IMG/VR virus record: IMGVR_UViG_3300028844_005363
Coordinates: 1-64,000 of that record
Source: a virus
DNA: 64,000 bases
Reading direction: 5' to 3' (one strand)
The notes beneath the pieces are model-generated. The model ran no database searches and had not been told where the DNA came from. It worked only from the letters and a program-made list of their open reading frames with translations. How positions within the stretch are numbered: position 1 is the stretch's first letter; every line of letters starts with the position of its first letter. Below, one piece after another: positions 1-1,822 of this stretch. Made by a program: the position numbers and the translations under genes.

Positions 1-2
1 TG

Positions 3-476
3 CAAACTTACAATGATTTGCAAAAAGAATACTTTAAATTAGTTGGTGACATAAACACCGCTAATCTCCAAAACACTATCACTTTAAATGGTGAGAAAGT
101 TAGTTTGGTTGTTGCAATTGAAATGCGTAACAATCTCGAATGGCAGAAAGATTTTGTACGAACCATCCATACTCAGGCTGTGAACATGGAGCGCCGTATC
201 TTAGAATCTAACACTGCTTTAGAAGAAGAGATTCAGCACGTTACTTTACGTAACAAAACAGATTCTATGGCTACAGCTGATGTACTAGAATTAGAAGAGC
301 AAACTCGTAACCGTCTGGAAAAAGCTAATAAAGCTATTATCCATGACCCGTTAAGTATTCGTCTAATGCATGAACGTGAAGCTGCGAAGTATACTGAGTT
401 ATGCGATGAATTGGATACTAAACTTAATATTGCTAATGCTACTATCACTATAGGTGTTGCAGCAGAAGCGAGTTAA
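3..476 (+). CDS. 5'-truncated alpha-helical protein, DIP1984/DUF6847-like
   Basis: Frame is open from the window start (QTYNDLQKEYF...). The pattern I-x-x-A-N...SLxxAIxxR...DP...ELDxxLNIANATITI resembles the DIP1984-like family as I remember it. Confidence 0.6.
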   Translation, partial: QTYNDLQKEYFKLVGDINTANLQNTITLNGEKVSLVVAIEMRNNLEWQKDFVRTIHTQAVNMERRILESNTALEEEIQHVTLRNKTDSMATADVLELEEQTRNRLEKANKAIIHDPLSIRLMHEREAAKYTELCDELDTKLNIANATITIGVAAEAS

Positions 477-603
477 TTTTAGTTGGTTTAATGTTGTGAC
501 GAACATTAAGAAAAGCAGTACCACACTTTACTACCTCAAACCATGTGGCTAAATAAAGGTTAGGAGTACTAATCATTCATTCTGATAAATGAAATGCTAG
601 GGA

Positions 604-672
604 ACTTTCGGTTACATGTTCGATTCATGTATGGGGTGCATACCCCATTAGCTCAATTGGTAGAGCAAAAGT
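604..672 (+). ncRNA. Circularly permuted tRNA-like module (T arm, closed acceptor stem, D arm; YrlA-like topology)
   Basis: ACTTT, CGGTT, T arm ACATG-TTCGATT-CATGT, acceptor ATGGGGT-GCAT-ACCCCAT, TA, D arm GCTC-AATTGGTA-GAGC, A, AAAGT. No anticodon loop and no free CCA end. Confidence 0.88.
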
Positions 673-703
673 CACGCATCGCTTTGAGGGAAGCTTAAAT
701 TCC

Positions 704-788
704 TCGTTAGCTGTCAGCATTTAGATTTGAGATGTTAGATTTGAAATATTAGATATTTTTTCTTCAGATATTTTTGAATAGATATGAG
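704..788 (+). repeat. 7-nt periodic NNNNNAG array inside the ncRNA
   Basis: TCGTTAG CTGTCAG CATTTAG ATTTGAG ATGTTAG ATTTGAA ATATTAG ... TGAATAG ATATGAG. Confidence 0.75.
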
Positions 789-930
789 TTGTCACTAAAT
801 CCTAGACTCAAGTTTACAATGGTTTACTACTTACCAGTTAATGTACTCTAGGCTGTCACACCATTAAACAGGTCTAAGCAATAGACTAAAAACAACCGGC
901 TGGTTCACGATACGAACCACTCAAATTTTG

Positions 931-967
931 TAAGCCATTAGATGTAATTATCTAATGGCTTTTTTTA
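931..967 (+). terminator. Rho-independent terminator
   Basis: AAGCCATTAGAT-gtaatt-ATCTAATGGCTT followed by a T run. Confidence 0.85.
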
Positions 968-991
968 TTTAGAACTAAGAGGTAATCACCT

Positions 992-1822
992 ATGTTAAAA
1001 GTAACTACCCAAGAGCATTTAGAAGATTCTCTTGCTAATATCTTCCGTATTTTTAGTGGAAGCCACGGCACTATTCGTCCTCATTTTATTCTTACTGGTG
1101 CTAGTGGCACAGGCAAGACTTACACAGTGCAAACATTCTGTGACAACATGAGCATCCCATTTGTAGAAATCAATGCAGCTACTCTTACTAAAGAAGGTAC
1201 TAGTGGTAACAGCCTGTCTAAATCTATGGCTAAGTTAGCTCAGTACCAGGGTATGCCTGTTGTATGTTTCGTAGATGAGTTCGATAAATTATTCTTAGCC
1301 GCTAACACATTAGCCGGTGGTGCTGCTGAAACTACATTAGGCGTTCAGAATGAGTTTCTAAAGGTTATTGAATCAGGCACGGCAGAAGTTATGGGTGAAT
1401 ATGGTAAATACCCTGAGATCAACGTAGAGAACGTTTTGTTCGTATTCGCAGGTGCATTTAATGGTGAAGCTAATATCACTACTAATCGTTTACATGAGCT
1501 AGGTGTTAAAACCGAGTTCCTTGGTCGTGTTGGTTTACTGTATGAAACTAATCCAGTCACATTAGATATGCTTTTCGAGATCCTTGAAAACTCTGAATTG
1601 CTTGATCAATACATGGAAATGTATGGTGACACAGAAAATCGTGATGATGTTATTAATGCCATTAAACCAGTCATTGCACAGCAGCATGAAAAGAGCACTA
1701 TCGGTGCACGTATGATTGCTACCCTTATTCATAAATACTTTATCCAAAGCGGTGTGGTTGAAGTAGATGTAATTACCACGCCTAAAACCAAAAGTAAGCT
1801 TACATTTAGTAAGCGAAAGTAA
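992..1822 (+). CDS. ClpX/HslU-clade AAA+ ATPase (minimal, no Zn domain)
   Basis: Walker A GASGTGKT, Walker B FVDEFDK, VQNEFLKVIE, FVFAGAF and EFLGRV match ClpX/HslU signatures; SD GAGG. Confidence 0.8.
   Translation: MLKVTTQEHLEDSLANIFRIFSGSHGTIRPHFILTGASGTGKTYTVQTFCDNMSIPFVEINAATLTKEGTSGNSLSKSMAKLAQYQGMPVVCFVDEFDKLFLAANTLAGGAAETTLGVQNEFLKVIESGTAEVMGEYGKYPEINVENVLFVFAGAFNGEANITTNRLHELGVKTEFLGRVGLLYETNPVTLDMLFEILENSELLDQYMEMYGDTENRDDVINAIKPVIAQQHEKSTIGARMIATLIHKYFIQSGVVEVDVITTPKTKSKLTFSKRK

What the first reader, a model, noticed from the sequence alone, without database searches (positions are those of the whole stretch)
3..967. Candidate new phage ribonucleoprotein system: DIP1984-like helical protein followed by a ~385-nt ornate ncRNA
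Seen in sequence: about 10 nt after the protein's stop codon begins a region whose ends pair. 486-501 GTTTAATGTTGTGACG pairs with 854-869 TGTCACACCATTAAAC (15 of 16 pairs counting G-U). It encloses a multibranch 5' domain (512-516/681-685 closing hairpins at 521-548, 558-574 and 576-593, plus the tRNA-like arm), a hairpin at 686-705, a periodic tract and a 3' domain (801-806/847-852). A strong terminator follows at 931-967. Spending ~500 nt on non-coding DNA is unusual in this otherwise tightly packed middle region. Established: N4-like core gene sets, as I know them, do not include such an RNA. Inference: the protein and RNA are co-transcribed and form an RNP, for example an oligomeric protein scaffolded by the RNA, acting as a tRNA-mimic decoy or anti-defence device. 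I cannot match it to an RNA family I know.
Basis: partly seen in the sequence, partly recalled or inferred. Interest (0 to 1): 0.93.

Follow-up and report, generated by a model that had tools for sequence, protein, structure and literature searches.

The report
Phage RNA with built-in tRNA mimic
Right behind a small helical-protein gene, this marine N4-like phage encodes a real, knotted RNA of about 385 bases from an uncatalogued family that follows the same gene in many unrelated phages; this copy alone carries a complete, circularly rearranged tRNA look-alike, which points to an undescribed protein-RNA particle linked to the cell's tRNA machinery.

Summary
Window 486-869 (+) is a structured ncRNA. 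It starts 10 nt after the stop of a 216-aa gene that is cut by the contig start (phrog_1491, DIP1984-like fold) and is followed by a terminator at 932-961.

It belongs to a family. Homologues of the protein at only 22-31% identity occur in Pseudomonas, Bacillus, Aeromonas and Xanthomonas phages and in uncultured phages. They are followed by an ORF-free RNA with the same core:
- P1/P1b, GA, P2
- a run of N5AG heptads
- an AAAUC-Px pseudoknot
- a 10-nt strand ending GCU

The composite signature hits 19 of 21 downstream regions and 0 places in 3.3 Mb of control DNA. In one clade 19 pairs show compensatory changes (0 of 500 shuffles).

No Rfam family matches, and no paper on this gene-RNA pair turned up. 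The scan has noted the pair before on other DNA, in at least 14 AI notes.

New here are the N4-like host genome and a complete circularly permuted tRNA (604-672, YrlA-type). It sits in the RNA's variable region. The phage has no Ro60 gene and the RNA has no Ro-binding stem.

Protein-RNA binding and function are inferred, not shown. Two tools (look-up of encoding contigs, complex prediction) were closed.

The parts
3..476 (+). 3' part (157 codons) of a 216-aa helical-protein gene; the contig start cuts off the first 59 codons
   Evidence: ORF. The window is the contig start. Full-length identical protein P0001. phrog_1491 over its full length, E 2.8e-24. Pfam DUF6847 and NCBIfam DIP1984 score below their cut-offs. 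AF2 model pLDDT 96.7; best PDB fold match 3KDQ.
486..869 (+). Structured ncRNA, from the first to the last base of the terminal stem
   Evidence: Sequence, fold z-score, family signature.
486..493 (+). P1 5' strand, pairs with 862-869
   Evidence: 8 bp, read. Every lineage has a terminal stem at this place.
496..500 (+). P1b 5' strand GUGAC, pairs with 855-859, followed by the invariant GA at 501-502
   Evidence: Signature scan. Five different covarying sequences across lineages.
503..509 (+). P2 5' strand ACAUUAA, pairs with 838-844
513..523 (+). Probable P3 5' strand, pairing with 820-832; rests on this sequence alone
   Evidence: Constrained fold. The position matches P3 of the Pseudomonas-phage clade, which covaries.
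558..593 (+). Two predicted hairpins (558-574, 576-593) in the variable region
   Evidence: Read from the sequence. No comparative support.
604..672 (+). Circularly permuted tRNA-like domain. Anticodon-stem equivalent 604-608/668-672; variable loop 609-613; T arm 614-630; 7-bp acceptor stem 631-637/642-648 capped by GCAU; U8 A9 at 649-650; D arm 651-666
   Evidence: Rfam YrlA local match 606-670, 35.6 bits, model positions 23-85. ARAGORN finds no tRNA as encoded. After in-silico un-permutation ARAGORN calls a canonical 76-nt cloverleaf at default threshold.
686..705 (+). Predicted hairpin before the heptad tract
   Evidence: MFE and constrained folds. Single sequence only.
704..752 (+). Strict N5AG heptad array: 7 units, 6 ending in AG and 1 in AA. 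A looser continuation with one register slip runs to 788
   Evidence: Six in-phase AG in 56 nt, reached by 0 of 300 shuffles. Comparable AG-ending heptads occur in other lineages.
797..806 (+). AAAU motif (797-800) followed by the Px 5' strand CCUAGA (801-806)
   Evidence: Pairs with 847-852. The same motif and pairing lie 38-41 nt before P2' in 8 of the 9 tabulated sequences (59 nt in L208, which has an insertion), with covariation.
838..844 (+). P2 3' strand UUAAUGU
845..854 (+). 10-nt strand ACUCUAGGCU ending in the conserved GCU. Its positions 3-8 (847-852) are the Px 3' strand; Px crosses P2 and P3, so it is a pseudoknot
855..869 (+). P1b 3' strand (855-859) and P1 3' strand (862-869)
870..930 (+). 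Tail with two predicted hairpins (871-888, 905-922) between the RNA core and the terminator
   Evidence: MFE fold. No comparative support; in other lineages the terminator follows P1 more closely.
932..971 (+). Intrinsic terminator: 13-bp stem at 932-961, then a T run
992..1822 (+). Next gene, an AAA+ ATPase conserved in N4-like phages; it marks the end of the insert
   Evidence: Pfam AAA. 117 relatives confirmed by tblastn in IMG/VR, the best 80 fetched as loci.

Best explanation
Window 486-869 encodes a non-coding RNA of about 385 nt. It is probably transcribed together with the upstream 216-aa gene and ended at the 932-961 terminator.

The RNA belongs to an uncatalogued family that lies immediately downstream of phrog_1491 / DIP1984-like genes. 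The family core is a terminal stem (P1, P1b), an invariant GA, two long-range helices (P2, P3), and a pseudoknot (Px) made by a 10-nt strand ending in GCU. This core holds out a largely unpaired run of 7-nt units ending in AG.

Most likely several copies of the helical protein bind that heptad track, one per unit or per few units, and form a ribonucleoprotein. A variable region between the 5' domain and the track carries lineage-specific hairpins.

In this N4-like phage that region holds a complete circularly permuted tRNA: T arm, sealed 7-bp acceptor stem and D arm, with all elbow-forming bases. The particle would therefore present a tRNA elbow that cannot be charged or decoded. It would serve to bind, recruit or sequester a host or phage factor that recognises tRNA shape.

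Shown: the RNA structure, family membership, the gene-RNA linkage and the tRNA geometry. Inferred: co-transcription, protein binding and the tRNA-related function.
For: Family membership:
- The signature is a 5-bp P1b, GA, a 6-bp P2, then P2', a 10-nt strand ending GCU, and P1b'. It is found in 19 of 21 regions of 750 nt behind homologous genes, against 51 hits in 3.34 Mb of control DNA.
- With the added requirement of an RAWYC motif plus at least 5 bp of Px, the control count is 0.
- The helices covary between lineages: five different P1b sequences and six different P2 sequences, and 2 to 4 pair types at Px positions 2-5.

Structure:
- In the Pseudomonas-phage clade 97.6% of cells are paired.
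- 19 of 37 pairs show compensatory changes; 0 of 500 shuffles reach this.
- Slid controls pair only 35-50% (RNAalifold).

Linkage:
- The protein is only 22-31% identical between lineages, yet an ORF-free stretch ending in a terminator follows it in Aeromonas LAh_9 (605 nt), Pseudomonas KIL1 (465 nt) and Bacillus Bcp1 (478 nt).
- The same holds in most of the 21 IMG/VR loci and in XaC1 and Milchi.

Heptads.

tRNA mimic:
- YrlA local hit with E 2e-5 for the 3-kb scan and 1.3e-7 per genome.
- ARAGORN calls a canonical tRNA after un-permutation.
- U8, A14, A15-U48, G18 G19, the T-loop UUCGAUU and the C13-G22-G46 positions are all present (read, using standard tRNA numbering).

tRNA context: tRNA genes or tRNA enzymes flank the pair in Bcp1, L208, L205, XaC1, Milchi and KLEB27-3. 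In related N4-like phages tRNA-Met and tRNA-Gln occupy this same slot.

Protein: a confident helical model with the DIP1984 fold, and uncharacterised look-alikes in many phages.
Against: - No transcript data: only DNA metagenome runs hold this sequence.
- No binding evidence of any kind.
- WIN is tied to the family by structure and synteny only. nhmmer from the Pseudomonas clade does not reach it and a full-length covariance model could not be built with the tools.
- The interior of the WIN RNA, including the junction that carries the tRNA-like domain, rests on one sequence. The closest relatives (P0002, P0152 and P0003, the latter two on 68-74 kb contigs) could not be fetched.
- One homologue, Bacillus phage KLEB27-3, lacks the RNA directly downstream. 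In Aeromonas phages the RNA lies about 470 nt after the gene. The linkage is therefore strong but not absolute.
- tRNA-gene neighbourhood is absent in the KIL, L210 and LAh lineages.
- Strict 7-nt phasing is statistically clear only in WIN and L208.
Confidence: 0.6

Rival explanations
1. The RNA works on its own, as an RNA-only machine or scaffold like ROOL or GOLLD, which also sit in phages near tRNA islands. The upstream gene would be linked only because both share a transcript, or because the protein is a transient folding or processing helper rather than a stable partner.
For: ROOL and GOLLD are phage RNAs near tRNA islands with no known protein partner, and tRNAs sometimes lie in the GOLLD linker. 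In Aeromonas phages about 470 nt separate gene and RNA. KLEB27-3 keeps the gene without the RNA directly behind it.
Against: The gene-RNA order, strand and short spacing are kept across 9 lineages while the protein drifts to 22-31% identity. A regular single-stranded heptad track is the typical look of a multi-copy protein-binding site. No Rfam large-RNA family matches.
Confidence: 0.17
2. The structured region is a cis-acting 3' UTR of the protein's own mRNA. The protein binds the heptads to regulate its own stability or translation, and there is no separate RNA function.
For: The RNA begins 10 nt after the stop codon with no terminator in between. Periodic NAG-type sites are used by HutP and TRAP for cis regulation (general knowledge).
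Against: A 300-400 nt pseudoknotted fold with a closed terminal stem, kept over very large distances, is far more than autoregulation needs. A complete tRNA mimic has no obvious role in a UTR. In LAh phages the RNA lies far from the gene.
Confidence: 0.08
3. The element is a Y RNA of the YrlA type. Its tRNA-like domain and flanking helices bind the host's Ro60/Rsr ring and tether it to an exonuclease, as in bacterial Rsr-Y RNA-PNPase machines. The upstream protein would be incidental.
For: The only Rfam signal is YrlA. Phages are known to carry YrlA beside Ro60 genes (PMC4201824). 4 of 13 phage records with stand-alone permuted modules have a TROVE gene next to them.
Against: The score of 35.6 bits is far below the cut-off of 69. 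The match is local, to model positions 23-85, and the Ro-binding terminal stem is not matched. The phage has no TROVE gene. The other eight lineages of the RNA family show no tRNA-like module: no T-loop/D-arm pair in the LAh_9, KIL1 and Bcp1 gaps, nothing in or beside those gaps at E<=1 in Rfam, and no Rfam match above cut-off in the L205, L208, L210, XaC1 and Milchi RNAs. The core function therefore cannot depend on it.
Confidence: 0.1
4. It is not a functional RNA. Alternatives are a decayed tRNA gene with chance hairpins, or a DNA-level element (replication origin or iterons, protein-binding repeats) in an intergenic gap.
For: Related N4-like phages carry tRNA genes at this slot. The 7-nt repeats could in principle be DNA-binding sites.
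Against: Decay cannot yield a permuted tRNA with a perfect sealed 7-bp acceptor stem and all tertiary bases intact. Long-range compensatory changes over about 300 nt, strand-specific and spanning the repeats, argue for RNA pairing. The composite signature has 0 hits in 3.34 Mb of controls.
Confidence: 0.03

Closest known systems
Bacterial and phage Y RNAs of the YrlA type with Ro60/Rsr (Rfam RF02553; PMC4201824)
   Same: Both contain a circularly permuted tRNA-like domain in the same order: T arm, capped acceptor-like stem, D arm, with the anticodon-stem position opening into the rest of the RNA. Both are ncRNAs encoded next to a presumed protein partner, and both occur in phages.
   Different: There is no Ro60/TROVE gene in the phage and no match to the Ro-binding terminal stem. 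The score is half the gathering cut-off. The RNA is 3-4 times longer, with a pseudoknotted core and a heptad tract that YrlA lacks. The neighbouring protein is a helical DIP1984-like protein, not a TROVE ring. The tRNA-like domain is an add-on seen only in this member.
ROOL and GOLLD large ornate phage RNAs (Rfam; bioRxiv 10.1101/2024.12.08.627333)
   Same: All are large, pseudoknotted, phage-borne RNAs of unknown function that often sit at tRNA islands. GOLLD sometimes has tRNAs in a linker region.
   Different: There is no sequence or structure match in Rfam. This RNA is shorter and has a dedicated upstream protein gene and a heptad tract. The embedded tRNA is permuted and sealed, not a normal tRNA.
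HutP-hut mRNA and TRAP-trp leader (Bacillus)
   Same: Both have regularly spaced NAG-type triplets on a single strand, read by many identical protein subunits. HutP sites have a 7-nt period.
   Different: Those are leader elements that control termination, bound by alpha/beta proteins. Here the tract sits inside a stand-alone structured RNA, and the candidate binder is an all-helical protein with a small sheet. Binding is untested.
DIP1984 family / Pfam DUF6847 / PDB 3KDQ (Corynebacterium diphtheriae protein of unknown function)
   Same: It is the best fold match (Foldseek probability 1.0, TM 0.61 on the target) and there are weak profile matches. It is a long helical hairpin with a small beta sheet.
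   Different: The phage protein is about 60 residues longer, scores below both curated cut-offs, and forms its own phage family (phrog_1491, mis-named 'tail fiber protein'). No function is known for either.
Permuted tRNA genes (Cyanidioschyzon merolae) and two-piece, permuted tmRNA
   Same: The order of the tRNA halves in the gene is circularly permuted.
   Different: Those are processed into normal, chargeable tRNA or tmRNA ends. Here the acceptor stem is sealed by a 4-nt loop and there is no anticodon loop, so charging or decoding is impossible.

Membership tests
Uncatalogued heptad-tract RNA downstream of phrog_1491 / DIP1984-like genes (defined here from 9 lineages) | Lies downstream of, and on the same strand as, a phrog_1491 homologue | tested here: met
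   The RNA starts 10 nt after the stop codon. The protein matches phrog_1491 with E 2.8e-24.
Uncatalogued heptad-tract RNA downstream of phrog_1491 / DIP1984-like genes (defined here from 9 lineages) | P1b (5 bp), GA, P2 (6 bp or more), then P2', a 10-nt strand ending GCU, and P1b' | tested here: met
   Window 496-509 with 838-859. The background rate is 51 hits in 3.34 Mb.
Uncatalogued heptad-tract RNA downstream of phrog_1491 / DIP1984-like genes (defined here from 9 lineages) | Px pseudoknot: an RAWYC motif followed by 5-6 nt that pair with positions 3-8 of the 10-nt strand, about 38-41 nt before P2' | tested here: met
   801-806 with 847-852, 6 bp, at a distance of 38 nt. No control hit has this feature.
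Uncatalogued heptad-tract RNA downstream of phrog_1491 / DIP1984-like genes (defined here from 9 lineages) | Run of 7-nt units ending in AG between the 5' domain and Px | tested here: met
   704-752, with 6 in-phase AG, reached by 0 of 300 shuffles.
Uncatalogued heptad-tract RNA downstream of phrog_1491 / DIP1984-like genes (defined here from 9 lineages) | Detectable sequence homology to other members | tested here: not met
   blastn and nhmmer from the Pseudomonas clade do not reach WIN. Membership rests on structure and synteny.
YrlA (Rfam RF02553) | Score at or above the gathering cut-off of 69 bits | tested here: not met
   35.6 bits. Nothing at gathering threshold.
YrlA (Rfam RF02553) | tRNA-like module: T arm, capped acceptor-like stem, D arm | tested here: met
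   Aligned to model positions 23-85. The un-permuted form is called a tRNA.
YrlA (Rfam RF02553) | Terminal 5'/3' stem with the Ro60-binding site directly flanking the module | tested here: not met
   Model positions 1-22 and 86-114 are not matched.
YrlA (Rfam RF02553) | Encoded next to a Ro60/Rsr (TROVE) gene | tested here: not met
   No TROVE match in the 74.8-kb record. The host genome is unknown.
tRNA (RF00005 / ARAGORN) | Contiguous cloverleaf with anticodon loop and free acceptor end | tested here: not met
   No tRNA is called in the window or the rest of the contig. One is called only after artificial un-permutation.
DIP1984 family (NCBIfam NF038048) / DUF6847 (PF20935) | Profile score above the curated cut-off | tested here: not met
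   23.6 bits against 70, and 24.1 bits against 27.
DIP1984 family (NCBIfam NF038048) / DUF6847 (PF20935) | Same fold as the solved member 3KDQ | tested here: met
   Foldseek top hit, probability 1.00, TM 0.61 on the target. Profile hit to 3KDQ with E 6e-4.
ROOL / GOLLD / OLE / raiA large RNAs | Match to the Rfam covariance model | tested here: not met
   No such match even at E<=10. None appears in 7 other member loci at gathering threshold.
HutP / TRAP type periodic-triplet RNA-protein systems | Partner protein of the HutP or TRAP family | tested here: not met
   Pfam gives only weak DUF6847 and DUF7628. The fold search gives 3KDQ.

The most novel reading that the evidence does not exclude
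The family is a modular phage ribonucleoprotein. A conserved pseudoknotted core and a protein-coated heptad track act as a chassis, and the variable region displays interchangeable RNA 'cargo'. In this N4-like phage the cargo is an unchargeable tRNA elbow. It would act as a decoy or recruiter for host tRNA-recognising factors, for example tRNA-targeting defence nucleases, modification enzymes or the ribosome. That would make it a new class of RNA-based counter-defence or translation-hijacking device.
Probability: 0.2. Interest if true: 0.92.

Novelty: categorically new. Interest (0 to 1): 0.82.

Why it matters
If the inference holds, a small helical protein of unknown function and a dedicated knotted RNA form a particle that no catalogue lists. 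The protein family has 190 clusters at 50% identity and occurs in podo-, myo- and jumbo phages of Gram-negative and Gram-positive hosts.

The pair often sits among tRNA genes and tRNA enzymes. This window gives the first concrete functional hint: evolution has grafted a complete but sealed tRNA shape onto the RNA.

That makes a long-standing question testable, namely what the large orphan RNAs at phage tRNA islands do. Cultured members exist (Pseudomonas KIL1-5, Bacillus Bcp1, Aeromonas LAh phages, Xanthomonas XaC1), so knock-outs, pull-downs and cryo-EM are feasible.

It also shows that YrlA-type tRNA mimicry is a portable RNA module used outside Ro60 systems.

Tried and rejected
The contigs of the closest relatives could not be read: P0002 (53% identity, ENA 4.7 kb), P0152 (Logan 68.5 kb) and P0003 (40% identity, Logan 73.6 kb).

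Searches for closer relatives that found nothing:
- The search for related loci with the protein or small alignments: nothing close in IMG/VR and nothing in JGI metagenomes.
- blastn of 1-1000 against 50,697 phage records: no match.

Expression and variation:
- Sequencing runs: no RNA holder listed, only marine DNA metagenomes.
- Laying contigs gave an identical copy over 1-585 in a second study and no variants, so no covariation data.

Other tests:
- nhmmer from the Pseudomonas-clade alignment reaches L210 and L208 but not WIN, Bcp1, LAh or L205.
- A full-length covariance model was not attempted. The RNA has about 300 or more positions, well beyond the calibration limit.
- Strict AG phasing is not significant in several lineages because of register slips.
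- Staphylococcus phage K lnc001 and lnc002 (PMC9241854) were checked as possible expressed members. They have no signature, and gp233 is not a homologue.
- Stand-alone permuted tRNA-like modules in other phages are not embedded in this RNA family and have no phrog_1491 gene nearby.
- PADLOC gives no hit for the protein.
- Literature searches for DIP1984, DUF6847, RAGATH-27 and heptad ncRNA found nothing relevant.
Full report
**What is in the window**

The window is the first 64 kb of a 74,757-bp linear IMG/VR virus record. The phage is N4-like. It has a 3,689-aa virion RNA polymerase ORF. Its capsid protein is 55-61% identical to those of Alteromonas, Vibrio and Pseudoalteromonas N4-like phages. 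The runs that hold it are marine metagenomes.

ORF 3-476 is cut by the contig start. The identical full-length protein is P0001, 216 aa, recorded on a 75,149-bp contig.

Between its stop codon (474-476) and the next gene, an AAA+ ATPase at 992, lie 515 nt with no ORF above 34 aa. A 13-bp terminator sits at 932-961.

The stretch folds better than all 100 shuffles, z -3.46.

**The tRNA-like domain**

Rfam gives one meaningful signal. It is a local match of 606-670 to positions 23-85 of YrlA, 35.6 bits against a cut-off of 69, with E 2e-5 and 1.3e-7 per genome.

Read against standard tRNA numbering, 604-672 has these parts in order:
- an anticodon-stem equivalent
- a 5-nt variable loop
- a T arm with the loop UUCGAUU
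- a perfect 7-bp acceptor stem closed by GCAU
- U8 A9
- a D arm with G18 G19

The partners for the usual tertiary pairs are present (A15-U48, C13-G22-G46).

ARAGORN sees no tRNA as encoded. I re-joined the two halves in the normal order in a script, with an arbitrary anticodon loop and ACCA. ARAGORN then called a canonical 76-nt cloverleaf at default settings.

So this is a complete circularly permuted tRNA that can be neither charged nor decoded. It is not a pair of tandem tRNAs, which can also give partial YrlA hits, as PMC4201824 warns. The phage has no TROVE/Ro60 gene.

**The upstream protein**

P0001 matches phrog_1491 over its whole length, E 2.8e-24. It scores below the cut-offs of Pfam DUF6847 and NCBIfam DIP1984.

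A 126-sequence alignment gives an AlphaFold model with pLDDT 96.7: long helices plus a small sheet. The best solved fold is 3KDQ, the DIP1984 protein. The best viral look-alikes are all uncharacterised phage proteins.

HMMER over 1.84 billion representatives finds 190 clusters, nearly all 200-225 aa long. The RefSeq name 'tail fiber protein' has no support here.

**The gene-RNA pair recurs in unrelated phages**

tblastn finds homologues in 25 phage records. In Aeromonas LAh_9, Pseudomonas KIL1 and Bacillus Bcp1 the gene is followed by 605, 465 and 478 nt with no annotated gene. The KIL1 and Bcp1 gaps end in a terminator hairpin. Twenty-one IMG/VR loci behave alike.

Within the Pseudomonas-phage clade the downstream region shows invariant blocks interrupted by variable hairpins. 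RNAalifold predicts 58 pairs, 21 of them with compensatory changes.

I wrote out a structure with P1, P1b, P2, P3, P4 and a pseudoknot Px, and counted it formally:
- 97.6% of cells are paired.
- 19 of 37 pairs have changes on both sides, against a shuffled mean of 6.2; 0 of 500 shuffles reach this.
- Slid controls pair only 35-50%.

**Tying the window's RNA to that family**

Sequence searches do not reach it. The architecture does:

| Lineage | 5' side (P1b, GA, P2) | 3' side (P2', 10-nt strand, P1b') |
|---|---|---|
| WIN | GUGAC-GA-ACAUUAA | UUAAUGU-ACUCUAGGCU-GUCAC |
| KIL | GCGAC-GA-AUUGCC | GGCAAU-GCACCGAGCU-GUCGU |
| Bcp1 | ACACC-GA-CACUUA | UAGGUG-CCUGGUGGCU-GGUGU |

L205, L208, L210, XaC1, Milchi and, further downstream, the LAh phages follow the same pattern.

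A scan for this signature hits 19 of 21 downstream regions, mostly 15-45 nt after the stop codon. It makes 51 hits in 3.34 Mb of control DNA.

A feature not used in that scan adds independent support. An RAWYC motif is followed by 5-6 nt that pair with the middle of the 10-nt strand. It lies 38-41 nt before P2' in 8 of the 9 tabulated sequences (59 nt in L208, which carries an insertion). With this added, the control count falls to 0.

It crosses P2 and P3, so the RNA is pseudoknotted.

WIN also has the family's heptad tract. It is the cleanest copy seen: 704-752, with six in-phase AG, reached by 0 of 300 shuffles.

The tRNA-like domain sits in the stretch between the 5' domain and the heptads. 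In the other lineages that stretch is hypervariable and holds unrelated hairpins. No other member examined shows a tRNA-like module.

**Context**

None of 80 N4-like loci around the AAA ATPase gene has the protein or the RNA. In two of them, tRNA-Met and tRNA-Gln occupy this slot.

In six other lineages the pair lies next to tRNA genes or tRNA enzymes:
- Bcp1: directly after an array of about 18-20 tRNA genes
- L208: tRNA genes on both sides
- L205: a tRNA gene right after the RNA
- XaC1: tRNA genes and a peptidyl-tRNA hydrolase
- Milchi: tRNA genes, a tRNA amidotransferase and an RNA ligase
- KLEB27-3: tRNA genes immediately upstream

KIL, L210 and LAh have no tRNA genes nearby. KLEB27-3 has the gene but not the RNA directly behind it.

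**Known or new**

No Rfam family covers the RNA in this phage or in seven other member loci. Full-text searches found no paper on the pair.

ROOL and GOLLD share the habitat, phages near tRNA islands, and GOLLD sometimes has linker tRNAs. They do not share the structure.

The scan's own earlier AI notes describe the same DIP1984-like gene plus heptad RNA in at least 14 other genomes. I read them after finding the synteny and the signature independently, and I do not count them as evidence.

What this window adds is an N4-like member and the grafted tRNA mimic.

**Mechanism**

The structure, the family membership, the gene linkage and the tRNA geometry are shown. Three steps are inferred:
- gene and RNA share a transcript;
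- several copies of the protein coat the heptad track;
- the particle uses the sealed tRNA elbow to engage a tRNA-recognising factor.

I put about 0.6 on the RNP reading as a whole, above 0.9 on 'real RNA of this family', and about 0.2 on a decoy or recruiter role.

**Limits**

There are no RNA reads. The interior helices of the WIN RNA rest on one sequence.

Noticed in passing
L002 10240-10362 (contig 74240-74362), near the contig's far end: Odd tRNA-like element. It has a 6-bp acceptor stem, a canonical T arm followed by an encoded CCA, and a 53-nt insert that carries a second T-arm-like hairpin. ARAGORN calls it only at a lowered threshold with an 'intron', and Rfam gives an 18-bit cyano_tmRNA fragment. 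If the genome is circularly permuted, this lies just upstream of the P0001 gene (about 392 bp are missing).
   Followed up: partly
L096, L110, L115, L123, L149, L159, L183, L185, L186, L189, L199 and others (IMG/VR loci): Stand-alone circularly permuted tRNA-like (YrlA-like) modules are common in phage contigs, often inside tRNA gene arrays and sometimes in several copies. All score below the Rfam YrlA cut-off (best 58 bits). Only 4 of 13 records have a TROVE gene beside them, and three complete genomes (G002, G007, G010) have none.
   Followed up: partly
L201 3643-4110 (Aeromonas phage LAh_9) and the same place in L204: About 470 nt of further ORF-free, repeat-bearing sequence lies between the phrog_1491 gene and the family RNA. 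It gives a weak STnc100 hit (36.9 bits) and may be a second RNA. The annotated 38-aa ORF gp026 overlaps the family RNA and is probably spurious.
   Followed up: partly
L006 2602-2974 and L009 2610-2981 (related N4-like phages): tRNA-Met and tRNA-Gln genes sit directly upstream of the AAA ATPase gene. This is the slot that holds the protein-RNA pair in this phage.
   Followed up: no
window 790-794 versus 855-859: GUCAC occurs twice, so 496-500 (GUGAC) has two possible partners. Likewise 488-494 can pair locally with 503-509 instead of P2. This could be a conformational switch or chance.
   Followed up: no
RefSeq records NC_048776, NC_030934, NC_024137 and others: phrog_1491 proteins are named 'tail fiber protein' in RefSeq and PHROGs. 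Nothing seen here supports that: the fold is DIP1984-like and the genes lie in early or tRNA regions.
   Followed up: partly
window 1-585: An identical copy of this stretch occurs in a 2023 marine metagenome from a different study than the likely source sample (2017).
   Followed up: no
L227 (Bacillus phage KLEB27-3) 1992-2700: This homologue sits right after two tRNA genes but is followed by a terminator-like hairpin and annotated ORFs instead of the family RNA.
   Followed up: no
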